The notes: generated from the sequence alone by a model not told the origin. A stretch of DNA of 64,000 nt from Mytilus trossulus (GCF_036588685.1 NW_026963301.1:434001-498000), one strand, 5' to 3'. Counted from the stretch's first letter, positions 5,500 to 58,727 are shown. Translations and numbers: made by a program.

Positions 5500-6581
5500 A
5501 AATGCATTTGACTTCTCGCAACATATTAGTTAAAACGATAAAATTGAAAATCTGTCCGGTCTTGCACATCTCTGGAACGATTAAGTGCAATAAAGCACTG
5601 ATCGACGTCCATTTTCATTGACTGTGCTAGTACACATTTTGATAATAGAGTCTGACTGAAGCCCCATGCATGTGTTTCTCATTGTGTTGAAGACTCATTG
5701 GTGACCTTGGACTGCTTTTTATTCTATGGTCGGGTTGTTGTCTTTTTGACACATTCTTAATTTCCGTTCTCAATTTTATTGCATGTAAATTTTGTCGAAT
5801 TCCACTCCGGCCTTTGTTCAGTTCAATAGTCTGATGTTACTCAACAGAATCGCATACATAAAAGTACAGATTGGCAAATTGTTGTCTGTTCAATGTTCAG
5901 TGACAGATATTCCAGGTCTGTTGATCCAAAATATATAGGGGACTGAGGTGTCAGCAACATTTATGGCTAATCCAGGTTTTTACTTGTTCTACTCCCCTCT
6001 AGTGCTAGAATGTCTTGTATGTGGACCCTCTCCGTTTCAAAATCCTGGCTTCTCAGAGCCTGACTCCGCATTGTGAATCACTGAACTATTGTTGCATGAT
6101 CGAATAGGGTTGATATGATCATTTGGCTTTGCAATAGACCATCGGACCACGAACCTTTGAAGAGTCTTTGCAAGGTTTTTTCATGTTTGGTATTCCTTTA
6201 AATGTGTTCACAGGTCCAGTCCAATTAGACGTGGCTACGTACTTATACATCCCGCATTGCCATACTGATCGTAAAATAAAAAGGAAGAGAAATTCAACAT
6301 CAAATATTTCACAGAGTAAATATCCATAAATAAACACACATGTATGAAGCCTCCTAGAGGAAGCCTCAGTGTACTATTCATAAGCTCACCACACAAAATT
6401 CAAGACACAAAACGTTAATGTTAACACGCGCCAAGGATGCAGTAACAACAGGTCTCAACTGTAGCGACCTAGTTCTTGACTCCAGGTAATCGACATATTG
6501 TTTTTACGTTACAGTTACAGTGTTGCGAAACACCCGTTTATTTACATTTTGAAATATTTAAAGAGCGGATTAGAAGAAGAT

Positions 6582-27799: not shown

Positions 27800-27905
27800 T
27801 AACACGTGCCATAACTGTAGACATGTTGCGGGGAAGTTTAGGCGAATGCGATAACATTTGCCCACATTGTAGACCTGTTGTTGGAAAGTTTAGCCGAATG
27901 TGATA
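27750..27905 (+). repeat. 3 x 52-bp tandem repeat spanning the stop codon of LITAF gene 3
   Basis: Units at 27750-27801, 27802-27853 and 27854-27905. Confidence 0.9.
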
Positions 27906-33468: not shown

Positions 33469-33736
33469 GTTATCCTCCACCGGGACAGCAAGGCCAACCA
33501 ATGTACCCACAAGGTCAACAAGGTTATCCTCAAGGTCAACCTCAGCAAGGTTACCCACAAGGTCAACCACAGACGCAGACAGTTGTAGTACAGCAGCCTA
33601 TGATTGTTAATCAGGTGTTCAGGGAGTCTCCAGTCCGTATGCAATGTCCTGCGTGTAGAGCAGATATAGTCACGGCTTTAAATTATGATACTGGGATGTT
33701 GGTGTGGATTCTTTTTGGAGTAATGTGTATATTTGG
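33469..33736 (+). CDS. LITAF: LITAF-like gene 4, exon 2
   Basis: Acceptor AG at 33467-33468. Translates GYPPPGQQGQPMYPQGQQGYPQ...FRESPVRMQCPACRADIVTALNYDTGMLVWILFGVMCIFG. Donor GG|GTATG. Confidence 0.92.
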
Positions 33737-36757: not shown

Positions 36758-38934
36758 GGTATTTTATCTTTGATGTGTGACAAATGTACCGAAGATAAGT
36801 TGGAAATGGGATTAAACTGTAAGAACTCAGAACAGATCGTCATGAAATCGTGCTTACGTACCAATCATAACCAAACGGCTGTAATTGTGGTTTTGTCAAC
36901 CCGGATATTTACTTTTAAATTACATTTTAATTGTAAAGGATTGCTATGTGAGTTTCCTAAACATAAACACACGTTCGCAATTTATCTTTTTTATTACATA
37001 CAAGTTTCAAATTAAGACGATATCTAGCTGGTTTTTAACTGTATCTAACCGCGCACTCAATCTCTCTCGGACACACTTATGGCAATATGTATACTTTGGA
37101 TGCATTTGACAGGTTCCCTACTTTAACTCTCTAAGAGGAGGCTGAACGAATTAGATCAAATATGTGAGATACAATCATCCCCTCCGCACCCTAACCCCCC
37201 CCCCCCCCCCAATAAAAAAATATAGAAAACTGGCTAGGCTACTGTTAAAATTTGTATATACTTTAGTTCTTTGATTATTATTTTTTTCATTTTCAATTTG
37301 ATTCAAAGATCAACCAGGTGCGAATATATACAATATAAAGGTAAATTTGGGAATTTCCCCGTGAGGTTGGTTAATGTTCAAAAAAATTTAATGGACCTAT
37401 TGACATATCGCAAGGAGTGACAAAGGTCGCAAACATTCTTTAACCCGATTGTGTACAGGGAATATTATCAGATTGGTTTGGGACATACTGAGGACTGCCA
37501 AAAATTTCATGTTGAGGCCCAATGTGGCATAGTGTACCTAACTAACTAAAGGAAATAGAAGATTTAAAGGCTTAAGATATACTATCTTTTACTGATAATT
37601 AGTGTTTTATCTACAATTTCTAAATATAAGGGTGAACAAACGTACAATTTCTAAATATAAGGGTGAAAAAACGTATAATGTGCGAAAACGATTTTTCTCC
37701 GTCACTGGTCATAAATTATATTTGAGGGGGAAATTGGTACTAACGCCTTTATTTGGACTGTTGTGGTGCATACTAAATTTTCCTTTACCGTCCCTTACAT
37801 GAAGCTTCAAAATGTGAAATTTATTATTTTAACAAAGTATCTGAAAACCGCTGATTGAAATTTAACCATAAGGACGTTTATATTTTTGGGCGATGCGTAA
37901 TAGTGCACCAAGTATTTCAAATTTGTATGAGAACTAATATAAAGTGGTTTCACATTTCGAAATGCTTGTGTATTGTTTGATATTTTGCTCAGGGACATTT
38001 TAATGGTTTTTATTTTATACATCATAATACTATATACTATCATACACTGTAGTGTAGTTATGCATCGTTTATTTTGTTTTTGCGTAGGAGACAAAAAATG
38101 TGGAAATCCATATTACATACACAGTCTACACAATCATAATTAAATCGATCTTATCAAAAGATATATCGTGGTGACCTCTCTATCGTAATGCCTTACAGTA
38201 AATGTCAGACGATTGTTAACAAACCACAATTGTATATATTACACTAACTTAATCAAAGTTCGTCACCGAAAAAGGGTAAAAAAAATCCCTTGAACTTGAC
38301 AGTTGTGGGAAATTAATCCTACATTTTATAGAATTAAAGCTTTTCTGATTTAGTAATCTATATCTTTGGTGTTTTAAAGCACCATTAATTTTTTTTGCAT
38401 GAACCCCCTGAGGGGTTCATGCTTATATATTGGTGAGTTTTGGATGTGTCTATGGGCCACTCGATATCTCTCAGCCGGAAGTCAGAATAAATTTCTCGGA
38501 ACGTCTCGAAATTTTTCGGTCATTTATACAGATCTAAACAGGTTGTTATCTACGTCTTTGATATGGTCCCTTGATGGCCCTTGACGAAGCAATTATATTT
38601 GTTTTACAAAAAAAGTAAAAACACAAAAACGACCACTGTATACTGTGTGTATCTGGGTCAATTATAACGTTGTCTCGATAACATGTAAACTAATTATGTT
38701 TGAAGATTTAACCACGGGATGCTGACAGTGTATTTCATCATAGACTTACGTGGAGAACATTCTAGTTATACTATTTATATTAAATCGGAAAACAGAAAGA
38801 TAATATTCTAATCAAACTTATCTAATTTAATCGGAATGAAAGAAATATCTACCAAATTAATATACTGTATTTATGTTTCTGAAGAAACTAACAATGATTG
38901 AAATCAGAATATTTTCAGTTACAATTAAGGAATA

Positions 38935-39054
38935 ATAAAATTGAGAATGGAAATGGGGAATGTGTCAAAGAGACAACAACCCGACCAAAATAAAAAACAA
39001 CAGCAGAAGGTCACCAACAGGTCTTCAATGTAGCGAGAAATTCCCGCACCCGGA
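38935..39054 (-). mobile_element. 3' tail of the Penelope-like family at 55507-56675
   Basis: Near-identical to 55509-55632. Diverged + strand copies lie at ~5690-5780, ~7560-7720 and ~29800-29930. Confidence 0.75.
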
Positions 39055-39213
39055 ATATTTTTATAAATACATACCTTTTTATATAAATTGGTTATTTTGA
39101 AAGTGTATACAGGTAGTCATTAACTTCAGAACTAAGAAATTCTTCGGCAAAACCAAGTTTCCCTGCTGTATAATGTTTGAAATGATTTTAAAAGTAAAAT
39201 CAGGAAATCCTTC

Positions 39214-39979
39214 AAACGGAAAGTAAGATGAATTTATAAAATATTTAAATTTTAAACGGTCGTGAATAAAAATACTTGTGTGTTTTCAATAATAGATTAC
39301 ATAAAGCATTATTTCAAATCTTTGCAGCTCACAACAACCTTAAAAAATAATTTACAATAATTACAACAAAATTTAATTACAACCATAATGTTGATTATTT
39401 TATACTGTTTTAGTTTGTATTTAGTAGTCTTTGCTTATATTTTATATAGTAATATATTCAAATATATAGTGGAATGTTATGATTTACTAAGTATTTAATA
39501 TGACAAGATACTCTGCTTTGGTATTTTTAAATATTCGTTTGTAAAGGAAACATACAAATTAAATTTAAATAAATTCTTGAATCCTACAAAAAAAATGTTT
39601 ACAAACAATAATTATTATATTTCTACGTTTATTATTTCATCCCGTTTTAGTATTTAATAGGTTTTATTAGTAATTATTTATTTTTTTGTATTGTAATATA
39701 TCCATAAAACGGAAAGTAAGATGAATTTATAAAATATTTAAATTTTAAACGGTCGTGAATAAAAATACTTGTGTGTTTTCAATAATAGATTACATAAAGC
39801 ATTATTTCAAATCTTTGCAGCTCACAACAACCTTAAAACATAATTTACAATAATTACAACAAAATTTAATTACAACCATAATGTTGATTATTTTATACTG
39901 TTTTAGTTTGTATTTAGTAGTCTTTGCTTATATTTTATATAGTAATATATTCAAATATATAGTGGAATGTTATGATTTA
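39214..39979 (+). repeat. 273-bp local direct duplication (39214-39486 and 39707-39979)
   Basis: Near-identical copies offset by 493 bp. Separately, 39055-39216 matches 40740-40898. Confidence 0.85.
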
Positions 39980-42287
39980 GATTCATTCGATAAATACAAT
40001 GTCCATCCGCAAATGTTTGGCGTTCGGGTTTATTGATATTATATAGTATATATTTAAAATAATTTGGAAAAGATTACTAACAGTAACGTTAGTTTATTGT
40101 AAAATTGTGATTCAATTTTTCAAATTTTAACCTTATAGTATCTACATATTTTGCGATGGTACGGTTTTAAAAATTGAGTTCATTGTGTTGAACAACTAGT
40201 CTACACGTCTTGATTCGTTCACTTTATAGATCACATGTCAAATGCCAATGTCAATGAATCCGTAATCAAAACATTTAATGAAGGCCGTTTAACATTCAAA
40301 TTCAACTATGATATTAAGATATGTGATAACGCAAATGCGTATTATTTTCCTGAGTATCAGTGAGATGATTTCTATTTGCTATTTCGTGCGCTAAAATACT
40401 ACTTGCATGCAATACTATTAAGTTCACTCGTGAAAGTTTATTTTCGTTTTTGTTATCTAAATTCAAAACACGGCAGAAAGAGCTTTACATGTGACTTCCA
40501 AGCACGGTCATCATAACTAACGGTATTCTGACCTCGAGATGTTTCTCTTTTGTTTCTTTTTTGAGTCACTGTCCTATTATAAACTTTGACATTTTCGAAA
40601 AGTTAAGGATTGTCTACCCAAAGAATAGATTCCTTAACTTTGTAATGTATTTAGCCTTTTAACTTTTTTCATTAGGGGGTCACTGATGCTTTTTTTGGAG
40701 ACTTAACTCGTGTCTGAGGTACATCATTTAAATTCTGGTATATTTTTATAACTACATACCTTTTTATATAAATTGGTTATTTTGAAAGTGTATACAGGTA
40801 GTCATTAACTTCAGAACTAAGAAAGTCTTCGGCAAAACCAAGTTTCCCTGTATAATGTTTGAAATGATTTTAAAAGTAAAATCAGGAAATCCTTCAAATT
40901 TGAGATGTTTTATGAGACCAAAATAAGTCTCTTCATAAGAGGTCCCAATCAAGTGCATGTCATAGGTTTCACCGCACAAAACATCTACCATGAGTAAAGA
41001 CAGCTTCAAATACGAGTTGGTCATAAAGGCATTCATGTAGGAAACAAAATATAAAGATATGATATATAAAATATATGCATCCAGAATTCCAGATTATAAA
41101 GCAAAGTGAGAGCATAAATTTATACTGCGATAGGTTTATGCAATTTGCATAAGTCATCCGGTTAGGAGAAATGACAATTTGCCAAATGCTTATAATTGAA
41201 AAAATTATGCAAATTCCCAAGTAATAAATAAAATAATCGAACTTCAAAATGACTATTCAAATCGGCCCATTCAAATAGAAGCTGTAAACATATACTTTCA
41301 CCTAGCATCTTCTATTAACAGTCAGTTATTTCAATACAAAAGCAAACACAAATTCAGCAACAATCTTTTGGTGACACGTTAGTCAGCGGTCTTAGGTTCA
41401 TGTATTGCTTTTCTTTTTTTAAAGAAAGCAACTTGTTTTATATATTTGGTTTTTAAATTTCTTTAAAATATTGTGAAAACTTGAGGTAACATAGCACAGG
41501 CAAAGTGGGGGTGAACATTTGATTGTTTAATTTTTCCAGTAATGGTTATTAATTTATATGTAGTTATGTGGAATTTTGTATAAATTTTGTCCATAGTAGT
41601 GGACAGGCTGAAACTTTACTCTCTTTATTGAAACAAAGATAAAGTCTGCATATGATTACTTGAGAAGTGTTTTATCAAAGACTAAAAGGGGAAATAAATT
41701 GTGGTATTTCGCCTATACATGTAGGTATGATGTATGCAATGCCATAATACAGCACGTATGGATTGAAATAAGTTCGATATTTATACTATGCCGATTTGCC
41801 ATCCCTTGGGTCACTTTTCTAGATTCTGATATAAAATGTCATTATATATCAATGAATACAGTATCCCTTATTATACATTGTAGTGAGATAGAACAAAAAT
41901 ATGCATCTAATATAGCACGGAATTCACTAGGGGATATTTTCCCACATACATTGTCCATCTTACAACCGACCAGTACCATTTGAATTATCGACGTACACTA
42001 TCTTTGTCTGATTGCTTGTTTCCTAACGTCCAGTGGCTAATATTTCACGCAGGTTCAGTACAATCTGTGTTAATAAGATTTCGCAATGAAAAACGTAGTA
42101 ATATTATACAGTAATTATGAATCATTGTGATTCTGGTGTTAAGATTTTCTTGTCAGTGTTTAGGATGGAGAGAGACAATTATTTTTCTTAAAACAATTTA
42201 TTTCCTTATCCAATGCTTTGCATATTCTTATTTCGCATCCAAGGTATAATAAAGTCATCATAGATACCAGGACTAAATTTTATATAT

Positions 42288-42334
42288 ACGCCAGACGCGC
42301 GTTTCGTCTACATAAGACTCATCAGTGACGCTCG
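42288..42334 (-). ncRNA. Minimal type I hammerhead ribozyme with intact core
   Basis: Minus strand reads GAGCGUCA-CUGAUGA-GUCU(UAUGU)AGAC-GAAA-CGCGCG-UC^UGGCGU: stem I, core boxes, stem II, palindromic minimal stem III and GUC cleavage triplet. Confidence 0.88.
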
Positions 42335-42657
42335 AATCCCCAAAAGTTAAAAAAAAACACCAAATAAACTACGAAGTTGAAGAGCATTGAGATCCAAAAT
42401 TCATAAAAGTGTTGCCAAATACAGGTAAGGTAATCCATGCCTGAGGTGGAAAAGCCTTAGTATTTCAAAAAATTCAAAAACTTTGTAAACAGTTAATTTA
42501 TAAATATAACAATATCAATGATAATTCATGTCAGCACAAAAAGTGCTGACTACTGGGCTTGTGATACCCTCAGGGGAAAAAATCTCCACCAGCAGTGGCA
42601 TCGACCCAGTGGTTGTAAATACACTCATCATAGATACCAGGACTAAATTTTATATAT

Positions 42658-42704
42658 ACGCCCAACGCGCGTTACGTCTACAAAAGACTCATCAGTGACG
42701 CTCG
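42658..42704 (-). ncRNA. Second hammerhead copy, core mutated
   Basis: CUGAUGA and stem II are retained, but GAAA is changed to GUAA and GUC to GUU. Confidence 0.7.
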
Positions 42705-44026
42705 AATTCAAAAAATAAAAAAAAAACCAAGTTAATGCAGACTATAATGTAACTTCCTTTGTTGTTTTTGTTAGAATATATAATATATTTAAGGATATCA
42801 GTCTAAAATTAAATTTAAACATACTGTATAAGATAAGAAGCTTACAAGTTATAGTGTGATTATTTTGAAAGCAAACCTGATTGAGCAGTTCTTGATTTAC
42901 AGTACTTTAAATATTCATTAACAAGATGTGTAAAGGGGTGATTCTGAAAGTTTAAGCACCATCAAATTAAATCAACTAAAAGCTCCTTAATATATAGTCT
43001 GATAGTTAAATGTAAGTGGTTGATCATCTATAATTTTCTCTTCAAATTGAGGAATACAACATTTGGGATCAAAAGTGGGGAGAACTATCATCGAAAAATC
43101 ACCATCATTCCCCAATTTCTCTCACGCCCCTACACATGTGTTATTTTTTCGGTTTACAAAATATTAATGTTTATGAGATCTCTAAAGATACTGTACGAAT
43201 GGTCAAATCGAAAAATTTGAGTTGTTTCCCCTTTACCAATGGTTAATATCATACAGCTTCGCCTTTGATTATAACATAAGGATCAATAGTATACAAGATA
43301 CTATTTTGCTTTGTAATGACATGTAATGATAAGAATTTATGATTGCATAATACTACAAGACAATGAATTGTTGTTATGTTAATATCATGGTAATATTATT
43401 TCAATAACAGTTTGTTACGCTGACATATTCTCTGAAAAAAACGAATCATTTAATTATAACTGCGGACGAATATCGAAATATCTCTTGAGGAGCACGTATT
43501 TACGGTTGACCAAGGGAAATTATCCTTTCCATGGTAATGCTTAGCCAAAACATAGATCGATGCGCGAGGGAAATTCAGAGACCAATTTAGGGGGTCCCAC
43601 TTTCACTTTTATGCGAAAAAATTGGTTGAAATATTAAGGGAATCACTGGAGCATGAATGTAGCAGGCCCTCTTAGGCAGTTAATGCCCTCCTCTCCCTTT
43701 GTGAAAATTTCTAGTCCGCTACTAAAAATGGCTTTGCAATTGCGGATGAATATTAAAAAAGTTTTTCGGTGGCATGGGACGTATTCACGGTTGACCAAAG
43801 CGAATCTTCCTTTAAATGATGCCTTAACAATTAACGCGCCAGGGAAATCACGTAACAACCGCGGATGAATACTGAAATGGCTTTTCAGTGGCACGAATTA
43901 AATTTACTTTGTTTTATTGTGAGATACATGAACCCACCATTGTACACGTTGAAGCTGTCCTCAAGGACCTTAATATGCATCTACTCAACAGTTTACCATT
44001 ATTGAGAATTTTATTTTAAAAGTTAA

Positions 44027-44197
<171 letters not shown>

Positions 44198-45540
44198 TGT
44201 GGCACTCGTTATACATGACCTAAATTAAAAATGAGACTCAGTCACATGACTTACATCTAAAATGAGGCTCAGTCACATGACTTTCATTGATGTTGTGAAC
44301 ATCTATGCAATCGTAGTAAAGTTGTTTGATTATGTATCTGTAGCTGCTTTGTACCCTCTCAAAAGGTCTAAGCATTATTATTTTTTTATTTAACCTTCAT
44401 AAATCATCTTTTAAAAAGTTCTGTATCAGTGCCTAAATTATTTATGACTATGTACAAGCATCACACATTTAACTTGCTCTGATCTGTAATTAATGGAGCA
44501 ATTGAATGCACAGACACTCGTCTCAGAATTCCCCCCTAAATACCTTTATATATACAGGGATATAGGATTTTTTTTTTTGAGACGAGTGCCTGTGATTGAA
44601 TGCTATTTCCACAGTGAAATACAGTTGCCACAGGTTCAAAAGTTTTCCTAAAAACTCATCAGGGATATATATAAGGCTCATAATATTGGCGCCATACGCG
44701 CGTGTTGTCTACAAAAGACTCACTACTGACGCTCGATTCAAATTAGCGTCAACGACTGTCATTTAGAATCACAAATTATAAATCAAACTTTAAAAACTCA
44801 GGTTTACTGTTTTGTGCCTATACAATTTTCCAAGTTAAGAAGAAAAGCGGTTCTATATTTTTTGGTATGTTGTTGGTGTTTTTTTATGCAATCTTGATAC
44901 TATTGCTTTGAGCATTTTGTCTTGCCTTGTAGCTTTATGTTAAACGTTTATTGTTACTTCTACGGATAACTTTGTATTTTGTGTGGAATCATAAGAAGGA
45001 AAAAGTTACTTGTTTTTGAATAAAGACTGCCGGTTTTTTTACCATTTACATGTCTGTATAAGTTTACTTGAGCATTTTCAGATGTCTAAATATTAATTAT
45101 TTTTTTAATAATCAGCCAGCCAATAAAAAAAAATATGTTCGCCAAAAACATCTATTCTGCTTGAGATGTTATATTTTACGTTTTATCAAATCATTTCATT
45201 CGATAGATTTTATTTTTTTCTATAAATGATATTGTTTAAATCCTTTTATATATTCATCTACATGGACTTGTATTTTTTTTATCTTATCAAAAGTTATTCA
45301 TGGTTTTATCGAATTATTCATGTATACGTTAGTACCTCTATACTTTTTAATATCTACGATATAAAGTTATAAAAGTGATTTTAAAACGTCTTGTGTTAGT
45401 TTATACAGCCACACGTATAACACATTGTTTCGGGAAGCAGTATTATAATTTTATACTTACACGCGAACATACGCACGCTGTGGTAAATATTCGAAATACA
45501 TCATCAATGGAATATATAATCGATTCAATATATAAAAAAA

Positions 45541-45700: not shown

Positions 45701-46255
45701 AGGTTCCATATTCTAGATTCATATTTCTGTTAAAGCATATAGAATTATTTCAAGGGTGTTATAGTTTTTGTTTTGTTTTATATATACAGTCATGGGACAA
45801 CAGTGAGATCTTACTAAAAAAATGTCCTATCATTTCAACTAAAATCGTCAATGTATATTAAGCCATGTGTTCTTCTTTTTCGCCATTTTTTTTCCATTCT
45901 GTAATCCCCTCTGCATTGTAAATTGTTCCAAATAAAAATATAACAAATAGTTGAAATCTATCCCTCTACTTGTACATGTATTACTTAAAAACAGAAAGAA
46001 TACGTATACTGTAAAATTGGGTTTATTTATAAGAATAATTTATACCCGTTTTCAAACTATTCGTTTACAGGAAAATTCACACTCCGAATTTCTTGAATTT
46101 CTTGAATTATATTTTTAATATCAATTAACAGATATGTTGGGTATACCTATACGAGACAGCAAACCAACGATCCAAATCACCTGAAGACATACTTGTGTCC
46201 ATCTTCGAAGTAAGAGGATGGGACAGGATAGTTAGAGAGAACAGGACAGGATAGT

Positions 46256-48000
46256 AGGAGAGGACAGAATCGTAATCCTCGACTATATCTCAGGCGGGAA
46301 CAGGATCGTAATCCTTTACTATCTAAGAAGGGTCGTGATCGTATTCCTTGTCAATTTCAGGAGGGGACAGGATCGTAATCCTTGGCTATCTTGAGAGGGG
46401 ACAGGATCGTAATCCTTGGCTAACTCAGGACGGGTCAGGATCGTTATCCTTGGCTATCTCAGGAGGGGACAGAATCGTAATCCTTGGCTATCTCAGGTGG
46501 GGACAGGATCGTAATCCTTGGCTATCTTATGAGGGGACAGGATTGTTATCCTTCGCTATCTCACGAAGGGACAGGATCGTAATCCTTGGCTATCTCAGGA
46601 AGGGACATGATCGTAATCCTTGAAAACCTTAGGAGGGGACAGAATCCTAATCTTTGGCTACCTTAGGAGAGGACAGAATCGTTATCCTTGGTTATTTAAG
46701 AAGTGGATAGGATTGTAATCCTTGGCTATCTTAGGAGGGGACAGGATCGTACTCCTTGGCCATCTCAGGAGGGGACATGCTCGTAATCCTTGAATACCTC
46801 AGGAGGGGACAGGATCGTAATCCTTGGCTATCTCAGGAGAGGACAGGATCGTAATCCTTGAATACATGTACCTTAGAAGGGGACAGGATCGTAATCCTGG
46901 AATACCTCAGGAGGGGATAGTATCGTAATTTTTGGGTATCCCAGGAGGGGACAGGATCGTTTTCATTGAATACCTCATGAGGGGACAGAATCTTAATCCT
47001 TGGCTATCTTAGGAGAGGACAAGTCGTTATCCTTGGTTATCTTAGGAGGGGACAGGATCGTAATCCTTGGCTATCTTCCATGTCTTAGGAGGGGATAGGA
47101 TTGTAATCCTTGGCTATCTTACATGTCTTAGGAGGGGATATGATTGTAATCCTTGGCTATCTTCCATGTCTTAGGAGGGGATAGGATTGTAATCCTTGTC
47201 TATCTTAGGAGGGGCAGGATCGTAATCCTTGGCTATCTCAGAAAGGAACAGGATCTTATTCTTTGGCTATCTTAGGAGGGGACAGGATTGTAATCCTTTG
47301 CTATCTCAGGAGGGGACAGGATCGTCATCCTTGTCTATCTTAGGAGGGGACAGGATCGGAATCTGTGGCTATCTTAGGAGGGGACAGGCTTGTAATCCCT
47401 CGCTATATCACGAAGGGAACAGGATCATAATCCTTGAATACCTCAGGAGGGGACAGGATCGTAATCCCTGGTTATCTCAGGAGAGGACAGGATCATAATC
47501 CTTGAATACATGTACCTTAGGAGGGAACAGGATCGTTATCCTTGAATACCTCAGGAGGGGACAGGATCGTAATCATTGGCTATCTCAGGAGAGGACAGGA
47601 TCGTAATCCTTGAATACATGTACCTTAGGAGGGGACAGGATCGTAATCCTTGAATACCTCAGGAGGGGATAGTATCGTTATCCTTGGCTATCCTAGGAGG
47701 GGACAGGATCTTTATCCTTGAATACCTCGGGAGGGGACAGGATCGTAATCCTTGGCTATCTCAGGAAAAGAAAGGATCGTTATCCTTGAATATATGTACC
47801 TTAGGAGGGGACAGGATCGTAATCATTGAATACCTCAGGAGGGGATATTGTCGTAATCCCTGGCTATCTCAGGAGGGGACAGGATCGTTATCCTTGAATA
47901 TCTCAGGAGGGGACAGGATCGTTATTCTTGAATACCTCAGGAGGGGACATGATCGTAATCCTTGGCTATCAGGAGAGGACTTGGTAATCATCCTTGGCTA
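46256..48000 (+). repeat. 34-bp minisatellite, about 50 copies
   Basis: Consensus AGGAGGGGACAGGATCGTAATCCTTGGCTATCTC, with a GAATACCTC variant and short insertions. Confidence 0.95.
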
Positions 48001-49502
48001 GCGAAGATAACTAGTGTCAGTCAACAGATTCAAAGCGAACAAATGAAAAATATCTCAATGTCAACATACTGTCTTCAATGATTAAAACATGTATATTCCA
48101 TAAAAAAACCATTTATATTCCATATGTCAAAGTTAATAACTCCTAGTTTAAAACAAAATTAACAACAGTATATTTAACAAAAATTCAAGCACTGGCGAGG
48201 TCCCAAACTGAGACAGTCGAATGGTATGTGGAGGGGTTAAATTGGCTTTTGAGAATTTTTACAAATGGAGGAGTCATAAATCAAAAGCTTCGATCTTAAA
48301 AAAAAATAAAATAAAATCACAAAAATACTGAACGCCAAAAACAAGAAAGTCTATAATTAAATCGTAAAATCAAAAGCCAAAACACTTTATACGAATGGAT
48401 AAAACCTGTCATATTCCTGACATGGTTTCAAACATTTTCTGGTTTCCCTATTTTATAGCTAGTAAACCTACCACTTATATGACATTCGCTTACAATTCCA
48501 TAATTTTGACAACGATGCCTGCAAAAAAAAATAGACACACAGGTAAAAAAGTAAAAAAAAATGGGGTACAGCAGTCAACATTATGTTACATAAAAACAAA
48601 CAAATATGTAACAAAGAAACATAAAAATGTATATAGACAAAGCACGTAAGTAAAAAATGAAAGACAAACATACAAGAATGTACTATACATTTTTTTAAAT
48701 AGAGGATGAAGTTCATTTTCTATTTAAATGTGACACTCATTTATTAAAAATAGAGGAATTGTTGCAAAATATATCAAAATCATGTCCAAACTTTCAAAAT
48801 TTAAATATTGATAACAAATTAATTTGGATAATGAATAATGAGGATCCCAATGTACTATTTGCATTTTACAAATATATAGAAGATACTAAGAATTAAAGTA
48901 CAACTTAATCTGCAATAACTAATTCATTATAACTCTTTAATATGAATTTGGATACCCTGTTAAGCCTGCACAAATCATAAGAAGAATTTCAAATTCTTTG
49001 GCACCGTCCCTTGATGATTTTTGCTGGCTGGACACAGAATCTATAATCTTAAAAATATAATTTTAAAATATATTTTCAATAATTAAGGAGCTTGACTCAT
49101 CTGCATAAAGTACAAGTAGGGACTCCCCTTTAAGCACCGACTCTTGGTGCTTTCTGCAGATAAGTCATATTAAATATCCTTTATTAAATATACTTTGTTA
49201 TTTGCAGTATACCTCATAGTCAAATGTGGGAGTGCTTAATTGCTTTGTTTTTTATTGGGTTCTTTTTGTATTTTTTTTATATTGACATTTCTCTGCACAA
49301 ACTAATAATGCCTCATGTTTGTCTTTTCAAAATGAAGATACACTTACCGGGTGCACTTGAGTCAATTTGAACATAGTATTCATTGAATAATTATACATTG
49401 CTACTATTATATTGAGTGTATTTTCTGTGGTATATTATTTTATTTTTTTATTTTTATAACACTTGTTACATATCTTTTATTGTGTGTGTATTGCATATGT
49501 TA

Positions 49503-50546
49503 TTATCCTCGAGGCCCAAAAAACAACAAATAGATAATAAGGTTTTGGCAGTATTTGGCCACAGCTTTATCTTGAATAAAATATAACATATATGATATAT
49601 AATATGTATTTAAATTGGCAATCTTGCTCTGAAATATATTTATCAATGTCTGTATTTAATATATATGTAAATTATAATGTGGCTACCGCAAATTATGGCA
49701 GACCACTAATATAAATATATTTAAGTAATATGTCTGGTACGAGAAGTTGACTGATGAGCCCTGGTAATCAGAGGCTATCATTACTGTTCACTGAATATAT
49801 GAATGTTAAATCCAGCGCAGCGAAATGTGCTCTGCCAATGTCCAACTTTTACATCTACTTTATGTTCACTAGTTGTCTCCTACTCTCCCATCTCAGTACC
49901 ATTAGCAGAAATAAGCTGAAATATAAACTTAAAAGCAGTATCTGGTTTCTTACTTCCATTCAGAACAAATACACATGCAACACAAAATTAATTTACATTG
50001 GGAGGGTGGTGGGTTTTTTAAGAAGATTATTTTCTCGTCCAATTTTCGTCTTCTGAAACCTTGCCGTCGTATTTCGAAAAGACCAAAGCGAGGTTGCGAT
50101 CAAACTAATCAACACAAATGTTAAATACCCAACAGTGAACCACCACCTACCCAAATTAAAATATTAGAGTTTGTACCCAATGGATAACGGGCTTTAAAAT
50201 TATAGATTTTAAATCCTTTTATCCTCGAGGCCCAAAAAACAACAAATAGATAATAAGGTTTTGGCAGTATTTGGCCACAGCTTTATCTTGAATAAAATAT
50301 AACATATATGATATATAATATGTATTTAAATTGGCAATCTTGCTCTGAAATATATTTATCAATGTCTGTATTTAATATATATGTAAATTATAATGTGGCT
50401 ACCGCAAATTATGGCAGACCACTAATATAAATATATTTAAGTAATATGTCTGGTACGAGAAGTTGACTGATGAGCCCTGGTAATCAGAGGCTATCATTAC
50501 TGTTCACTGAATATATGAATGTTAAATCCAGCGCAGCGAAATGTGC
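49503..50546 (-). repeat. Split direct repeats: B2 49503-49830, A2 49831-50218, B1 50219-50546
   Basis: Two 328-bp copies, identical by eye, offset by 716 bp, just downstream of the hydrolase ORF. Confidence 0.9.
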
Positions 50547-50724
50547 CAAATTGTCCGATAAGATCAGAGTAACAACTTGATCTGATTGGACAACCGCCAC
50601 TGAAAAGAGGGGGTGAAGCTGCGCGAAGCTGTGCCAAATACAATTTAATATATATAACTTTCAAGTTACTTCCTAGTAACTTACTTGAAACGTCAGATAT
50701 AAAATGTTAACATAACAGTTAAAT

Positions 50725-51326
50725 CTAATTACAGTCGGGGAAGGTTAAATTAATGCCAAGATTCCTGATGATCATTTCTAATCCTCCCTGGAGGGTATTC
50801 AAGAAAATGTTATTTCCCAAAGACGTCAAATGCACTCCATCTTTCATTAAGAATAATTCATTAGCCTTTATCTCAGGGTAACGGATGTAACAACCATCTG
50901 ATTTGGTTAAAAATGATGCTATAGAGGTATTAACCCTCAATCTACATTTTTCCATGGCATTAATATTGTCAGAGTAACGCCAACTTGATCTCGGAATAAT
51001 TTGAGACCAGACAAAAACTGTGTCCAACATCAGTTGACGCATCCAACTGAACTGTTTCCTTATTAGTTCACAAATAGTTTTTGTACTTTCTTTCCCTATA
51101 TCATTTCCTCCAATATGTAAAACTAATATAGTTGGCGGATCTTCATATTTTAACATGGTTCTTATTTGTTTTTTCATGTCCAGCACTTTACCTCCACATT
51201 TTCCTTGCCACCAAATATTTACTCCCATCCTCTGCAGCCCCAAGTTTACCCCTCCCGGTCGTCCTCTGGCTTCCCCAAAGGCATGCTTAATAATCGAGGA
51301 TCCAACGATCCAAACTGTAGCATGTC
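50725..51326 (-). CDS. SGNH/GDSL-type hydrolase (esterase) of the Ngaro element
   Basis: Frame is open from 51357. Blocks: I VWIVGSS (upstream of the track ORF start), II GKCGG, III LHIGGND, V KDGVH. The 5' boundary is placed at a putative splice acceptor. Confidence 0.85.
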
Positions 51327-51492
51327 CTGCAATTCTTAGAAAGCAATTATTACTTGCTTATATTGATGCAGGACATACCATTTATTTACATAATATACTA
51401 TTTTAAATGCCAGCTCAAGACTGCATTATGAAATAAGCAAATTGAAACATATTTTACACACATAAATGTACATATATAATGTTCAGGCACAT

Positions 51493-52375
51493 TTAAATCC
51501 TAATGTATCGCAAAAAGGCCTGTGACTTCCAACGTCCCATTTCTTTAATTTGCTCATCAGAAATACCCTCTAATGCGCATGTAGTTGCCATTCCAATTCT
51601 AAAGGAATGGGACTTAAATCCATTGTTTTCTATACCAATTACTGACCGAGACCTTTTTAATAATGCTGAAAACTGGTATCTTGTAAGGGGGGATCCATCA
51701 AAATGACAAAATAAAGGTCCCAGATAAGGTGGGCGAACTTTAATAAAATTAGCCATTATTTGTACTGGACATGTATTTTTGTTTTTCTGCTTAGAAATAA
51801 CGATTGTTGTTCCAGAACCAAACTGATCAGTTTTAGATGACGTCAATAACACCTCTAATCTTGTATCACAAAGCTTTATATTTTCAAATTTTACAGTATG
51901 CATCTGCTTATTTTTGCAATCAACTGTTATTTCACCTACTCTCATAAAACCATGAAAGGCTAGCGAAAATGAAGTCATAAACAGTTTTGTCTCATACCCG
52001 TTTTTGCAAATCACCGCCAGTGACCTCAATAATTTTCCAATATATCTCTTGTTATAGGTAATCTAGTGTCCTTTTGATTTGGGCCCCCCAACCTTTTTAT
52101 TCCTTCAATCAATTTTCTGACCACAAATTTCTGTGTATTGTCTTCTAAATTGTTGATTTTATTAAAGTAACTTAAGCCTGATATATAGCCAGATACTGTT
52201 GAGTGGGACAATTTCTTTCTAAACATATAAACAATAAATGATGTCAAGTCATCAAGCGGAATAGGCCAGACATCAGAAAAACCATGATTTTCTCTGAATT
52301 TAACAAATATGTCCATGCTATGCAAATATGCTTTCTGTGTACTGGGTGCTAATGAATTTATAATAAGTGATTCAT
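51493..52375 (-). pseudogene. Tyrosine recombinase with two apparent 1-bp frameshifts
   Basis: Catalytic motifs FMRVGE (R), SSKTDQ (K), SHSFRIG (HxxR), MGRWKS and LRYIR (Y). N-terminal SAM-like part at 52026-52325. Frame breaks near 52033 and 52360. The ATG overlaps the RT stop (ATGA). Confidence 0.88.
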
Positions 52376-54108
52376 TTCAGTTCTGAAATCATCGACAGGA
52401 ATTCTTGTGGGATTGCTGCTGGAGAACTGTCTGCATTCGGGACCAAGTCCATAAAACGTTGTTCCTGAAATCGAGAAAGAGCATCTGCGATTGCATTATG
52501 CTCACCCTCAATATGTTGTGCCCTAAATTGTATGTTATTGTTCATAGTGAGAAAAACTAGTTGTCTTATCCATATCATAACTCTCTTTGATTTTGAGGTT
52601 CTTTTGTTCACAATGCTTACTAATGCCTGATTATCTATTCTCAACAAAATCTTTTTATTTCTAAATGAAGGACCCCATATCATGAAAGACAGCACGATGG
52701 GAATAAGCTCCAAACATGTTATATCCAATAGAATGCTAGTATCAGCCCAACTACTGGGCCACTGGTATTGTACCCAGTGACCTTGAAAATAAGCTCCACA
52801 ACCTAATAAAACATTACCTGCACTATCAGTGAATAATTCCAGACTTTCATTAGTCGACCAACATCTATCAGGAAAATAACACTGACCATTGAATTGATCT
52901 AGAAAATTTAACCAAACTCTAGCATCTGCTTTGACCTCTGAATTCAATCTGACAGTATAATAAGGCTTTCCATTCTTAACTGAAGCTATCAAATCGTAAA
53001 AACGACGAATGAATGCACGGGCTGATATAATAGCTCCTGAACAAAATGCCATTAAACCAGTAATTGATTCAAGTTCCTTCAGTGCCATTTTCTTTTTTGA
53101 CAAGACCTGATCAAGCATAAATTTAAGTTTATCCAGTTTTTCAGGGGGGATTCTAACCAACATAAGTACTGTGTCAATTTCAAGGCCTAGAAATGTGATA
53201 CATGTAGTAGGACCTACTGTTTTATTCTCTGCTAGTGGAACACCTAACTGCCTACATACTTCATTAAAAGTGTCCATCAAAATGGTACAATTATCCGTTG
53301 AACTTTCACCAGCAAAGAAAAAGTCATCCAAATAGTGGTCTAAAGTCTCAATGCCAGCTTTCAATGCAACTGTTTTATGCAAAAAGGTGGCAAATTTTTC
53401 AAAGAGGGCACATGATATAGAGCAGCCTTCAGGCAGACATTTATTAATATAATATTTCCCATCAAAGAAAATTCCCAGAAGGTCAAAATCAGCTGGGTGA
53501 ACCAATAAAATTCTAAAGGCCTGACTAATGTCCATTTTTGCGCAAAGCACGTTATTTCCTAATTCAGAGATCATCCCAACTACTTTATCAAAAGAAGAAT
53601 ACTTTACTTTACAAATTTCTGGATCAATGAAATCATTCACACTCCAGTTTGTAGGATATGACAAGTGAGTTATAAGACGCCATCCCCCGTCATTTTTTGC
53701 AACTACCCCAATAGGAGATATTCTTAAAGTTGAAATTGGTATTTTTGAAAAGGGGCCCAACATTCTACCAAGATGCACTTCTTTTTGTAATTTTAAATTC
53801 GTTTCGGTTTTGTGAACTTCTGCCGAAATGAGATTGCTTGCAAAACTCGAGATCCTTGGACCAGTATAGTTTAATCTAAACCCCTCTATAAATCCCAATA
53901 ATAACATTGCTGCATCAGTTTTGTTTTCATAATTTGACAGTAATTCTCTCAACGATTTAATTTTGACTGGGGTTTTGCCTTTGTCCCATAAATGCTCCAG
54001 GAGAACGGAATCTTGTGTTATTTTGCATTTGCCTAGGTGCAAAGGGTTGAAAATTAGAAGCTGTTTTCTGTGGTGCTTGAGGCCGGGCTGATCTGAATCT
54101 CTGAACAA
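52372..54108 (-). CDS. DIRS-type reverse transcriptase and RNase H
   Basis: RT motifs WRLITHLS, KMDISQAFR, LPEGCSIS, HYLDDF and ITFLGLEID. RNase H motifs FTDSAG, LELIPI, RIDNQA and NAIADALSR. True start uncertain. Confidence 0.95.
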   Translation of the reverse strand: MFRDSDQPGLKHHRKQLLIFNPLHLGKCKITQDSVLLEHLWDKGKTPVKIKSLRELLSNYENKTDAAMLLLGFIEGFRLNYTGPRISSFASNLISAEVHKTETNLKLQKEVHLGRMLGPFSKIPISTLRISPIGVVAKNDGGWRLITHLSYPTNWSVNDFIDPEICKVKYSSFDKVVGMISELGNNVLCAKMDISQAFRILLVHPADFDLLGIFFDGKYYINKCLPEGCSISCALFEKFATFLHKTVALKAGIETLDHYLDDFFFAGESSTDNCTILMDTFNEVCRQLGVPLAENKTVGPTTCITFLGLEIDTVLMLVRIPPEKLDKLKFMLDQVLSKKKMALKELESITGLMAFCSGAIISARAFIRRFYDLIASVKNGKPYYTVRLNSEVKADARVWLNFLDQFNGQCYFPDRCWSTNESLELFTDSAGNVLLGCGAYFQGHWVQYQWPSSWADTSILLDITCLELIPIVLSFMIWGPSFRNKKILLRIDNQALVSIVNKRTSKSKRVMIWIRQLVFLTMNNNIQFRAQHIEGEHNAIADALSRFQEQRFMDLVPNADSSPAAIPQEFLSMISELK

Positions 54109-54555
54109 TCCCAGGTGACTGAGGATTATTAGAGTTAGTCACTTTGCTATTAGTGCAATATATAACCGGATGTACCCCACTGCATTTTAAACAAGCATGT
54201 TTGTATGTGCAATATTGTTGGGTGCACGTCCCATTATAATTATATGCATAGCATTTAAGAAAATTGTTTGTTGGTTTTTGTGCAATATTGAACTCTGGCC
54301 CATTAATAGGACCTGCTGGTTGCATATACAATAACCATAGCTCAGTGTCTATGACAGACCAGGATCCAGCAGGATCCTGTGATCTACGTAGTCTAAACTG
54401 TTCATCATACAATTTCCATCCTAAACCTGCATAGCGTTTAGCCCCTAACCTGACAGTTTGCATATACTTCAACAGTTCTTGGAACTGAGATGTATGTATA
54501 GAACAATAAATACTGATATATATTAAAAAGGCATCCGTCCATATACCTATTGTGG
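53957..54555 (-). CDS. gag-like ORF1, C-terminal part
   Basis: WTDAFLIYISIY...GWKLYDEQFR...W motif and Cys/His finger CYAYNYNGTC..C..KHACLKCSGVHPVIYC. Overlaps the RT ORF in another frame; N-terminus missing. Confidence 0.82.
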
Positions 54556-55506
54556 TGCTTTTATAAATAGTTATTTGGATGTAGAGTTGTCTCATCGGCA
54601 CTCATACCTATATCCATGTAACAGAATAACACTATGACGGGATGTCTAAGTACCGGACCATGTCATATGTAACAAAGAAAGAGAAAAAGGCATGTAAAGA
54701 AAGCAAAAATAAATAAAAACAGAATACATTTTTTTAACTATAGCACTATAACACAATGACGGGATGTACAGAGCCACGTCTGAAATGGATATCAACCAGG
54801 TCCAGCTTATGTATAAAATGGTTAAATGTATGCATCCGGCACATTTATATCTCAACATTGCACACTATCTTCAATATCTTCAGTGGATATCCGAGTCGAA
54901 TATATTTGAAGCGAAGCTAACAATGGCCACAAGGAGAATAGGTTATGAGATGGCAGGCAGTAATTTCTTTTTTTTTTTTTATGTCTTTATGAGATGTTGA
55001 AATAGAAATCACACAGGAATAAATGTATACCTTTTGTAATGTTCAATGTGTTGACATTCTTATGAATTATGTATACCGTGTATTCATCTTGGTTAAAAGA
55101 CTCAAGAGAAATCCAGTTCGAACCTGACAACACTGAAATCTCAGCCTTTATTATGACAACAAAGTAAATACAAGAAGCATTATATTCTATTTGGATAATG
55201 CAGTAACATTGCTTTTTAATTAATTTGATTATACTTGATAGTCTTATAGAATTTGTTTACGATTTTGAAATGAAATGAAATTATTGGTTGTTTCATCCTA
55301 TCTAATTTACATTGATTGAGTGTTGATTTCACAGTATTATATCCGGTTTAGACTAGTCATAAGAGTAATTAATAACACAAATCAATACATTAATATCTTG
55401 AAATCGACAATCATGGTCAATTAATAGTTAATGAAAACTGAGTATTGAGAATATCGTAAAAGACCAGTAATAGTAACTGTTATGTATAGGTTTTTTTTTT
55501 ATTACA

Positions 55507-56675
55507 AATAAAATTGAGAATGGAAATGGGGAATGTGTCAAAGAGACAACAACCCGACCAAAATAAAAAAAAACACAACAGCAGAAGGTCACCAACAGGT
55601 CTTCAATGTAGCGAGAAATTCCCGCACCCGGAGGAGTCCTTCAGCTGGCCCCTAAACAAATATATACTAGTTCAGTGATAATGAACGCCATACTAATTTC
55701 CAAATTGTACACAAGAAACTAAAATTTAAATAATACAAGACTAACAAAGGCCAGAGGCTCCTGACTTGGGACAGGCGCAAAAATGCGGCGGGGTTAAACA
55801 TGTTTGTGAGATCTCAACCCTCCCCCTATACCTCTAACCAGTGTAGAAAAGTAAAAGCATAACAATACGCACATTAAAATTCAGTTCAAGAGAAGTCCGA
55901 GTCTGATGTCAGAAGATGTAACCAAAGAAAATAAACAAAATGACAATAATACATAAATAACAACAGACTACTAGCAGTTAACTGACATGCCAGCTCCAGA
56001 CTTCAATTAAACTGACTGAAAGATTATGATTTCATCATATGAACATCAGGCACAATCCTTCCCGTAAGGGGTTTAGTATCATACCATCATAACATATATG
56101 AGAAGAACATAACCCGTGTCATGCCAACAACTGTTTTTAGAATAAATGTGTTTAGTTCCGACGCAAAGACCTTATCAGTGACTCAATATTAACGCCAAAA
56201 TATGCAATCTTTAATGACTTGACAACAGTATCGTAATTATATCCCTTCTTAATAAGTCTATTCAAAGGGTTTGTAAGTTTATGAGGTGAATACTGACACC
56301 TTTGTGCTTTATAAAGAATATTTCCATAAAAAATTGGATGTGAAATACCTGAACGTATAAAAAGTCTGCATGTTGAGCTATATTTACGAATGATGTCTGT
56401 ATACCGATGATAAAATTTAGTAAATGTTTTGACTAGTTTGTGATATCGAAAACCCTGGTGTAATAATTTTTCAGTAATACATAAATTTCTCTCGTTAAAA
56501 TCTAAAACATTGTTACATACACGAGCGAATCGTACAAGTTGAGATATATAAACACCGTAAGATGGTGACAAGGGAACGTCACCATCTAAAAACGGATAAT
56601 TAACGATAGGAAATGAAAAATCATCCCTTTTATCATAAATTTTAGTATTCAGCTTTCCGTTAGTGATATAGATAT
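55507..56675 (-). mobile_element. 5'-truncated Penelope-like element (probably Naiad clade): RT C-terminus plus ~640-bp 3' region
   Basis: 56675-56152 translates IYITNGKLNTKIYDKRDDFSFPIVNYPFLDGDVPLSPSYGVYISQLVRFARVC...*, with no C-terminal GIY-YIG. Confidence 0.82.
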
Positions 56676-56849
56676 TTTTAAACCAATATCTGCGAGAAAG
56701 CTATTCCTGTTTAATATCATGCATGACACTTTAATAATTTTATTTACATTTCCGTACTTTAAACTACCAGTATCAAGATTAAATAGACTATAACAATACC
56801 ATTCGTTGACTCCTTAGCGTTACAAATGCAGATGCAAACGGAGTCCCAC

Positions 56850-57193: not shown

Positions 57194-57730
57194 AGTATAT
57201 ATTATTTAATTATTTTTTTGCAGAACAATTTTATTGTTTGTACGTTCCTTCATACCTTTGTTAATCCACAGATCAAGATAAAATAAATTGACTCAAAATT
57301 TATTTATCAAAATGATGAGGATAATATGTTTTCTTAGGGCTTTTTGTTCGTTGCATTTCGTGATGATATTTAATCATAAATTATTTGTTGAATTTGTTTA
57401 CAAAAATTAAACCGAGCATACTCATTACACTCAGTTCGATACAAAAATAAAACCAAACAAACACAGTTCGCCAATTGTACTTTTTTTAATAGATTTCGTA
57501 TTTGTTGATATCACTGCACTTCAACCATTATAGTTTGCATTGAGGGTCGTTAATCATTTTCTTTCATTATTATCATCCAATTAAATGCATTTTATTTTTG
57601 TGCTTTCAATTTGTTTAATGAACCAATGTAACTTTTAACTGAAATTAAATATCAATATGCACACATTGTTTTGTTAAAAAAGGTATAATTTCGCTTGTGT
57701 AAACAAAATTTAGAAAATGTGAGTGATCAA

Positions 57731-58727
57731 ATGAAATTGAGAATGGAAATGGGGAAGGTGTCAAAGAGACAACAATCCGACCAAATAAAAAAACAACAGC
57801 AGAAGGTCACCACCAGGTCTTCAATGTAGCGAGAAATTCCCGCACCGGAGGCGTCCTTTAGCTGGCCCCTAAACAAATATATACTAGTTCAGAGATAATG
57901 AACGCCATACTAAACTCTAAATTGTACACAAGAAACAAAAACTAAAATAATACAAGACTAACAAAGGCCAGAGGCTCCTGACTTGGGACAGGCGCAAAAA
58001 TGCGGCGGGGTTAAACATGTTTCTGAGATCTCAAACCTTCCCCTATACCTCTAACGAATGTAGAAAAGTAAACGCATAACAATACGCACATTAAAATTCA
58101 GTTCAAGAGAAGTCCGAGTCTGATGTCAGAAGATGTAACCAAAGAAAATAAACAAAATGACAATAATACATAAATAACAACAGACTACTAGCAGTTAACT
58201 GACATGCCAGCTCCAGACTTCAAGTAAACTGACTGAAAGATTATGATTTCATCATATGAACATCAGGCACAATCCTTTCCGTTAGGGGTTTAGTATCATA
58301 CCATCATAACATATATGAGAAGAACATATAAACCCGTGTCATGCCAACAACTGTTTTTAGAATAAATGTGTTTAGACCTTATCAGTGACTCAATATTAAC
58401 GCCAAAATATGCAATCTTTAATGACTTGACAACAGTATCGTAATTATATCCCTTCTTAATTCTGAGGTGAATACTGACACCTTTGTGCTTTATAAAGAAT
58501 ATTTCCATAAAAAAATGGATGTGAAATACCTGCAAGTCTGCATGTTGAGCTATATTTACGAATGATGTCTTTATACCGATGATAAAATTTAGTAAATGTT
58601 TTGACTAGTTTGTGATATCGAAAACCCTGGTGTAATAATTTTTCAGTAATACATAAATTTCTCTCGTGAAAATCTAAAACATTGTTACAAACACGAGCGA
58701 ATCGTACAAGTTGAGATATATAAACAC
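57731..58727 (-). mobile_element. Second copy of the Penelope-like element, internally deleted
   Basis: Colinear with 55510-56555, with several short deletions that break the ORF. Confidence 0.82.

What the first reader, a model, noticed from the sequence alone, without database searches (positions are those of the whole stretch)
42255..42715. Intronic retrozyme: 370-nt non-coding unit flanked by self-cleaving hammerhead ribozymes
Seen on the - strand: a complete minimal type I hammerhead (CUGAUGA at 42325-42319, stem II GUCU/AGAC, GAAA at 42305-42302, palindromic CGCGCG, predicted cut between 42294 and 42293). A second copy lies 370 bp away and the spacer has no ORF. Established: tandem minimal hammerheads spaced by a few hundred nt define non-LTR retrozymes, which cleave as dimers and yield circular RNAs; they have been reported in mussels and are thought to be mobilised by Penelope-like RTs. 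Inference: this family makes a ~370-nt circRNA, and the PLE families in this window are candidate helpers. This copy has one mutated ribozyme, so it may not release a monomer itself. It is invisible to ORF-based annotation.
Basis: partly seen in the sequence, partly recalled or inferred. Interest (0 to 1): 0.75.

Follow-up and report, generated by a model that had tools for sequence, protein, structure and literature searches.

The report
Aged mussel retrozyme in LITAF intron
This is a 370-base repeat bounded by two hammerhead ribozyme motifs, one of them mutated, lying backwards in an intron of a mussel LITAF gene; it is most likely an old and probably silent copy of the already published mussel retrozyme, a mobile element whose intact copies are known to make circular RNA.

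Summary
An intact type I hammerhead lies on the - strand (42331-42288; Rfam RF00163, 33 bits), and a second copy 370 nt upstream has three lesions (A13U, C17U, broken 1.1-2.1 pair). The element (42248-42730, 1.3 units, 37% GC) sits antisense in a 10.35-kb intron of a Mytilus LITAF gene. Host genus, unit size and ribozyme type match the M. galloprovincialis retrozyme, whose cleavage and circles were shown in 2020 (PMC7229834); sequence identity to the deposited clones could not be tested. Three corrections. The ribozyme is canonical, not minimal. The paper's mussel monomer cleaves alone; the dimer need is amphibian. The window's Penelope-like pieces are truncated Naiad-type ends sharing no sequence with it. 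In one RNA run the family is transcribed and 19 molecules begin one base from the predicted cut, but the flanks have next to no reads. One lead: 5 of 5 alignable insertion ends stop 39-49 nt past the cut, resembling Penelope-type internal initiation of reverse transcription. Verdict: already known, low interest.

The parts
42248..42730 (-). Retrozyme insertion, about 482 nt = one 370-nt unit plus a 112-nt repeat (1.3 units), 36% GC
   Evidence: read and contig depth falls to background outside it
42288..42331 (-). Hammerhead A: intact canonical type I (stem I 6 bp, stem II 4 bp, stem III 2 bp plus palindromic tetraloop), predicted cut 42294/42293
   Evidence: RF00163 33.0 bits, E 2.6e-6; descriptor scan
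42658..42701 (-). Hammerhead B: mutated at 42674 (A13 to U), 42664 (C17 to U) and 42663 (1.1-2.1 pair lost); likely inactive; homologous cut 42664/42663
   Evidence: (19.1 bits)
42294..42663 (-). 370-nt cut-to-cut monomer, 37% GC, no long ORF; predicted circle -84.2 kcal/mol, z -1.7 against 100 shuffles (6 as stable)
42244..42253 (-). 3' end of the insertion, 47-50 nt past cut A, at the position where other copies also stop
33469..33736 (+). Coding exon of the host LITAF-domain gene (4th of 4 tandem paralogues), followed by a GT donor
   Evidence: 90-95% identical to Mytilus proteins P0128-P0133
33737..44088 (+). Host intron, GT..AG, 10,352 nt; the retrozyme lies antisense in it
   Evidence: spliced homologues join the two exons; a contig of run X1 leaves the stretch at 44088
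44089..44197 (+). Last coding exon of the host gene
   Evidence: 100% identical over 35 aa to M. galloprovincialis P0129 and M. trossulus P0130
44647..44742 (-). Copy C: short degenerate family copy with a destroyed core, downstream of the gene; the lower boundary was judged by eye
40581..40754 (+). Copy D: degenerate copy of the second subfamily, sense to the host intron, core destroyed

Best explanation
This is a 1.3-unit repeat with one intact and one mutated hammerhead motif, antisense in a Mytilus LITAF intron, and most likely an aged, probably silent copy of the published mussel non-LTR retrozyme. Family cycle: tandem copies are transcribed, each hammerhead cuts itself as a single motif, and 350-390-nt monomers accumulate as circles (shown in PMC7229834 for M. 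galloprovincialis, not for this copy); closure is probably by an RtcB-type ligase (shown there in vitro). A Penelope-like reverse transcriptase then probably copies a circular or uncut tandem RNA from a fixed internal site 39-49 nt past the cut and stops at variable points, leaving copies like this one (inferred). This copy should not touch the host pre-mRNA, which holds the complement of the ribozyme (orientation shown). It should release a monomer poorly or not at all, because the upstream core is mutated (inferred).
For: Ribozyme and spacing. Mytilus host. The unit of 370 nt here and 355 nt in L001 lies inside the published 350-390 bp, GC is under 50%, and two subfamilies about 80% alike are seen, where the paper reports two ribozyme families. 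High copy: about 89,000 contigs laid in each of runs X15 and X16, with depth piled on the element (not a copy number). RNA run X24: 4,780 reads of 8.7 million records laid, nearly all on the element and on one other short repeat; the only listed start pile-up is 19 molecules at 42662 (depth beside 61), one base from the predicted cut at a position where this copy has a mismatch; about 4 would be expected if 10 positions were pooled. Fixed 3' ends: 5 of 5 alignable ends among 8 copies examined.
Against: Sequence identity to the published clones (MN642551-MN642576) and to supplementary Figs S4-S5 could not be checked (the motif search found 0 papers), so membership rests on host, size and anatomy. 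No clean target-site duplication. No compensatory base change in 12 pairs over 10 copies, most of them picked by a shared motif. Circles cannot be told from tandem transcripts in the reads. The start pile-up is from one run of unknown library direction, and clipping at two adjacent mismatches could add to it. 93% of the laid reads run on unlike this copy, so they come mostly from other copies. Summed contig depth does not fall steadily towards the 5' side as 5' truncation would predict (confounded by divergence). The host exon also has no reads in X24, so the empty flanks there say little about this locus.
Confidence: 0.85

Rival explanations
1. The stretch is the left-over terminal repeat (pseudo-LTR) of an autonomous, hammerhead-bearing Penelope-like element and not an independent retrozyme.
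For: In Xenopus 24 of 57 retrozyme families are homologous to known elements, nearly all PLEs, at their termini (10.64898/2026.07.22.740005). The fixed 3' end with variable 5' ends is PLE-like.
Against: No ORF adjoins the element. None of the 5 metagenome loci matches the four PLE RT queries, and L001 is a bare array of over two units. The ribozyme is canonical, not the minimal PLE type. Only Naiad-like queries were used, and 4 of the 5 loci are under 2 kb. This reading may still be true of the family's origin.
Confidence: 0.07
2. The two ribozyme copies arose by a local DNA duplication or unequal crossover (satellite-like), with no RNA step at this locus.
For: The same intron holds other local duplications (39052-39216 = 40737-40898; 39207-39486 = 39700-39979). 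No clean TSD. A satellite route is discussed in 10.64898/2026.07.22.740005.
Against: The repeat stays inside family sequence and keeps the family's unit register. Its 3' end coincides with that of 4 independent copies.
Confidence: 0.04
3. This copy is active at its locus: a minus-strand transcript is cut at A, and at B by A's core in a dimer fold, giving a locus-made circle or antisense RNA that affects LITAF.
For: Hammerhead A is intact. The 8-nt palindrome could pair between the two motifs (-13.3 kcal/mol against +2.4 for the 2-bp hairpin alone). GUU is listed among cleavable triplets (PMC3138052).
Against: Three lesions in B. Next to no reads or contigs on the flanks in X24 or X1 (mean depth under 0.5), although X1 holds the spliced host exon. 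In Xenopus 8 of 9 predicted dimer elements did not cleave.
Confidence: 0.04

Closest known systems
Mytilus galloprovincialis non-LTR retrozyme (Cervera and de la Pena 2020, PMC7229834)
   Same: Host genus, type I hammerhead, unit within 350-390 bp, low GC, non-coding, two similar subfamilies, high copy, transcribed.
   Different: This copy has only 1.3 units and one mutated ribozyme. Sequence identity to the published clones is untested. The paper's main text does not describe insertion ends or intronic orientation.
Rfam Hammerhead_1 (RF00163), canonical type I
   Same: Copy A fits all 45 model positions, including the helix III consensus.
   Different: One bit under the gathering score. The mussel motif is reported to lack most loop-loop tertiary nucleotides.
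Penelope-like element pseudo-LTR with hammerhead (for example Poseidon PAc of Anolis, PMC11167929)
   Same: Type I hammerhead in partial tandem repeats; insertions end at a fixed internal site downstream of the ribozyme cut, at an AC-rich stretch, in AT-rich DNA.
   Different: No RT/endonuclease ORF here. The ribozyme has a helix III. The fixed end is 39-49 nt past the cut here, against 85-92 nt for the main PAc start (111-118 minus 26).
Naiad PLEs (Craig et al. 2021, PMC8557442)
   Same: The RT fragments at 55505-56700 and 57728-58730 belong to a family whose longer relatives carry DKA and end without a C-terminal endonuclease.
   Different: They are separate elements, 5'-truncated, with no sequence shared with the retrozyme. 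Naiads are reported to lack canonical hammerheads.

Membership tests
Mytilus non-LTR retrozyme | Canonical type I hammerhead in the repeat | tested here: met
   RF00163 33.0 bits over the full model; helix III of 2 bp plus tetraloop
Mytilus non-LTR retrozyme | Head-to-tail unit of 350-390 bp | tested here: met
   370 nt here, 355 nt in L001; range from PMC7229834
Mytilus non-LTR retrozyme | Mytilus host | tested here: met
   6 of 8 members of the host protein's cluster are named, all Mytilus; last exon 94-100% identical
Mytilus non-LTR retrozyme | Non-coding, GC under 50% | tested here: met
   37% GC; longest ATG frames 38 and 56 aa
Mytilus non-LTR retrozyme | Thousands of genomic copies | tested here: inconclusive
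   No genome is held. About 89,000 contigs laid per run in X15 and X16 and 3 insertions in this window show a high-copy repeat but give no number
Mytilus non-LTR retrozyme | Sequence match to the cloned circRNAs MN642551-MN642576 | not testable with these tools
   Supplement not readable; motif absent from the full-text library
Mytilus non-LTR retrozyme | Self-cleavage at the predicted site | tested here: inconclusive
   19 molecules begin at 42662 in one RNA run, suggestive for the family only; library direction unknown; no assay possible
Mytilus non-LTR retrozyme | Unit-length circular RNA | not testable with these tools
   Short reads across the ribozyme fit circles and tandem transcripts alike
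Mytilus non-LTR retrozyme | Target-site duplication over 4 bp (optional in the paper) | tested here: not met
   No exact repeat of 8 nt or more, nor one of 10 or more with one mismatch, across the two junction regions
Mytilus non-LTR retrozyme | No PBS or PPT | not tested
   No specific search was run
Active retrozyme in the sense of 10.64898/2026.07.22.740005 | [quoted passage not shown] | tested here: not met
   1.3 units; copy B mutated in the core (definition)
Minimal PLE-type hammerhead | Helix III lacking; located in a pseudo-LTR beside an RT ORF | tested here: not met
   Helix III present; no adjoining ORF; definition from PMC7761336

The most novel reading that the evidence does not exclude
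Mussel retrozyme insertions carry a Penelope signature: a fixed 3' end 39-49 nt past the ribozyme cut, just before an AC-rich stretch, with ragged 5' ends. This would mark an internal start site for a hammerhead-bearing PLE reverse transcriptase that must read across the cut site, on a ligated circle or an uncut tandem RNA. It gives a handle for naming the helper enzyme, which the 2020 review says could not be deduced from any conserved motif.
Probability: 0.45. Interest if true: 0.5.

Novelty: already known. Interest (0 to 1): 0.22.

Why it matters
As a locus it matters little: it is probably one damaged copy among thousands of a family already shown to self-cleave and make circles. The transferable point is the shared 3' end of the insertions. 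If it holds genome-wide, it turns the open question of which enzyme moves animal retrozymes into a direct test, because the predicted start site can be offered to candidate Penelope-like proteins in an assay that already exists for one of them.

Tried and rejected
No whole genome is held, so copy number and genome-wide end mapping were not possible. Rfam at the gathering threshold: 0 matches in the window. The run search listed no holder on record as RNA: no RNA holder listed; the raw RNA run X24 came in as an addition by species label. A 24-nt motif found 0 loci in viral contigs, 0 in prokaryotic genomes and 5 in metagenome contigs. The PLE RT query found no confirmed locus in viral contigs; P0008, P0012 and P0014 had no Pfam family and P0012 no useful solved-structure match. 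Free folding of 4 ribozyme copies gave no signal (z between -0.4 and +1.0). Pair counts on 10 copies showed no two-sided change. The TSD search was negative; a gapped look-alike of 10-12 nt at the two junctions, seen by eye, was not counted. Copy C could not be aligned past its cut and was dropped from the end count; L001 and L005 run to their contig ends and show no 3' end. Unit against the Naiad piece and the DIRS-like element: only short low-complexity matches. Earlier findings of the scan: nothing in 3 look-ups. Depth in Logan contigs was not used as a copy number. No paper passage was found for the effect of A13U; that A13 is an essential core base is recalled.

Full report
Observation. 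On the - strand the window carries a complete type I hammerhead at the coordinates given: core heptamer 42325-42319, stem II 42318-42315 with 42309-42306, GAAA 42305-42302, CGCGCG 42301-42296, predicted cut 42294/42293, stem I of 6 bp. A second copy lies 370 nt upstream within a 112-nt repeat, so the element spans 42248-42730, about 1.3 units. Rfam Hammerhead_1 scores copy A at 33.0 bits over all 45 positions (gathering 34, E 2.6e-6) and copy B at 19.1 bits; nothing in the window reaches a gathering score. My descriptor hits once in the window and in 1 of 100 shuffled windows. Copy B differs at 42674 (A13 to U), 42664 (C17 to U) and 42663, which breaks the pair next to the cut. That A13 is essential is recalled, not from a call; GUU is listed as cleavable in PMC3138052 (passages). 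Folding energy gives no support: the free fold is no better than shuffles and the hammerhead fold costs 4.3 kcal/mol for A and 6.4 for B.

Host. Four LITAF-domain genes lie in tandem on the + strand. The fourth has an exon ending at 33736 and a last exon starting at 44089, joined by a GT..AG intron of 10,352 nt. Full-length homologues run straight across this junction, and a contig of run X1 leaves the stretch at 44088. Of 8 members of the nearest protein's cluster, 6 are named and all are Mytilus; the last exon is 100% identical over 35 aa to the M. galloprovincialis and M. trossulus proteins. The element is therefore intronic but antisense, and the pre-mRNA holds no ribozyme. Two more decayed copies lie nearby: C at about 44647-44742 (-) and D at 40581-40754 (+, sense to the intron, core destroyed).

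Family. A 24-nt motif gave 5 metagenome loci and none in viral or prokaryotic collections. The longer ones are about 80% identical to the window unit and form a second subfamily; L001 is an array with a 355-nt unit and no RT match. Four runs were laid on 41900-44300 at 86% likeness. In X15 and X16 about 89,000 contigs each were laid, with depth piled on the element, which shows a high-copy repeat but is no copy number. In the raw RNA run X24 (about 6% read), 4,780 of 8.7 million records were laid, nearly all on the element and on a short unrelated repeat near 42009-42058, in both mate directions; the element's flanks had next to none and the host exon none. 93% of the reads run on unlike this copy, so they come mostly from other copies. 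The only listed pile-up of starts is 19 molecules at 42662 (first mate on -, depth beside 61). The predicted first base after cut B is 42663, where this copy carries a mismatch, and reads starting at the cut can only be placed at B because the spacer follows there. A crude Poisson estimate expects about 4 starts even if 10 positions are pooled by clipping. This fits cleavage of family RNA in vivo, but it is one run, the library direction is unknown and duplicates cannot be excluded. Reads do not separate circles from tandem transcripts.

Literature. PMC7229834 (parts 1-4 of 6 read, the main text; supplement not readable) reports about 5,000 type I hammerheads in M. galloprovincialis, in two similar families, within repeats of 350-390 bp. 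A cloned repeat cleaved at about 0.1/min, circles were abundant by northern blot, and RtcB closed about 30% of a monomer against about 1% self-ligation. The need for dimers was shown for axolotl. PMC7761336 (passages) assigns minimal hammerheads without helix III to PLEs and says that no conserved motif points to the helper of animal retrozymes. The preprint 10.64898/2026.07.22.740005 (parts 1-3 of 5, the main text) links Xenopus retrozymes to PLE pseudo-LTRs, finds 42-44% of copies in introns, and saw cleavage in 1 of 9 dimer elements. I also saw passages of 10.1101/721605 and PMC10886601, which add nothing. The family is thus described and tested. What I could not do is compare sequences with the deposited clones; supplementary Figs S4, S5 and S9 may bear on this and on insertion ends.

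Helper claim. The PLE pieces at 55505-56700 and 57728-58730 match only residues 262-435 or less of P0008 (94% and 87%), without its YLDD at 220. Longer relatives P0012 and P0014 carry DKA and stop without a C-terminal endonuclease, the marks of Naiads, which PMC8557442 (first part of Results and passages) reports to lack canonical hammerheads. Fragments near 26.5-27 kb and 29.3 kb are more decayed. The 55.5-kb piece shares nothing with the unit beyond short low-complexity matches, and the unit finds no real match to any of them in the window. None of these pieces can supply an enzyme; a PLE elsewhere in the genome remains the likely helper.

A lead on mechanism. Of 8 copies examined, 5 had an alignable 3' end: window A at +49, D at +39, L002 at +41, L003 at +44, L004 at +40 nt past the cut (A on its own subfamily's scale, +47 on the other). 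C could not be aligned; L001 and L005 run to contig ends. Under evenly spread ends the chance of so tight a range is about 5e-6, a simple null on few copies, three of them picked by a motif at the cut. The 5' ends differ from copy to copy. The ends fall just before or at an AC-rich stretch. PMC11167929 (parts 1-2 of 4, the main text) shows an Anolis PLE starting reverse transcription inside its RNA, in an AC-rich stem-loop downstream of its hammerhead cut, at nicks in AT-rich DNA, and using uncut RNA. A copy that starts at about +45 and is longer than one unit cannot come from a cut linear monomer, so the template was a circle or an uncut tandem. One point leans against a monomer circle for this copy: A and B differ at a loop II position (42313/42683) where both forms occur in the family, whereas two passes round one circle would start identical. 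Against the truncation model, contig depth does not fall steadily towards the 5' side, though divergence confounds it. I did not find this end pattern in the texts read or in the listings of searches; repeat databases and supplements were not seen. No clean target-site duplication was found, and pair counts on 10 copies show no compensatory change.

Verdict. The feature is real and the label retrozyme is right, at about 0.85 for the published mussel family. This copy is old, antisense and probably silent. The words minimal and dimer-cleaving, and the local helper claim, do not hold. Novelty: already known. Interest 0.22, most of it from the fixed 3' end.

Noticed in passing
window 49500-54600 (-): A DIRS/Ngaro-like retrotransposon with long open frames: RT (52372-54138, PF00078), tyrosine recombinase (51493-52062, PF00589), a GDSL/SGNH-like hydrolase (50725-51357, weak PF13472), and two 328-nt direct repeats 100% identical (49503-49830, 50219-50546), so probably young.
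   Followed up: partly
window 933-44197 (+): Four tandem LITAF-domain paralogues (exon pairs near 0.9/2.2, 9.9/10.7, 25.1/27.7 and 33.5/44.1 kb); the third has two short extra repeats of the end of its last exon at 27804-27900.
   Followed up: partly
window 55505-56700, 57728-58730, 38934-39054, 5687-5780: 3' ends of one Naiad-like PLE family. At 56048-56025 (-) its 3' untranslated part has a hammerhead-core-like run that does not fit the descriptor.
   Followed up: partly
window 42009-42058: A 50-nt piece of another repeat draws strongly one-directional RNA reads in X24 (depth 420 against 39), continuing into sequence not in the window.
   Followed up: no
window 46255-48000: A degenerate tandem array of about 1.7 kb, richer in G+C than its surroundings.
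   Followed up: no
window 39052-40898: Near-identical local duplications inside the host intron: 39052-39216 = 40737-40898 (96%) and 39207-39486 = 39700-39979 (99%), beside a PLE 3' end and copy D.
   Followed up: no
window 40581-40754, 42248-42730, 44647-44742: Of three family insertions around the host gene, the only intact ribozyme is antisense and the sense copy has a destroyed core; three cases cannot show selection.
   Followed up: partly
L002 (whole contig): The family copy abuts bacterial-looking reading frames in a low-coverage marine metagenome contig, possibly an assembly chimera, which would weaken its use as an insertion end.
   Followed up: no
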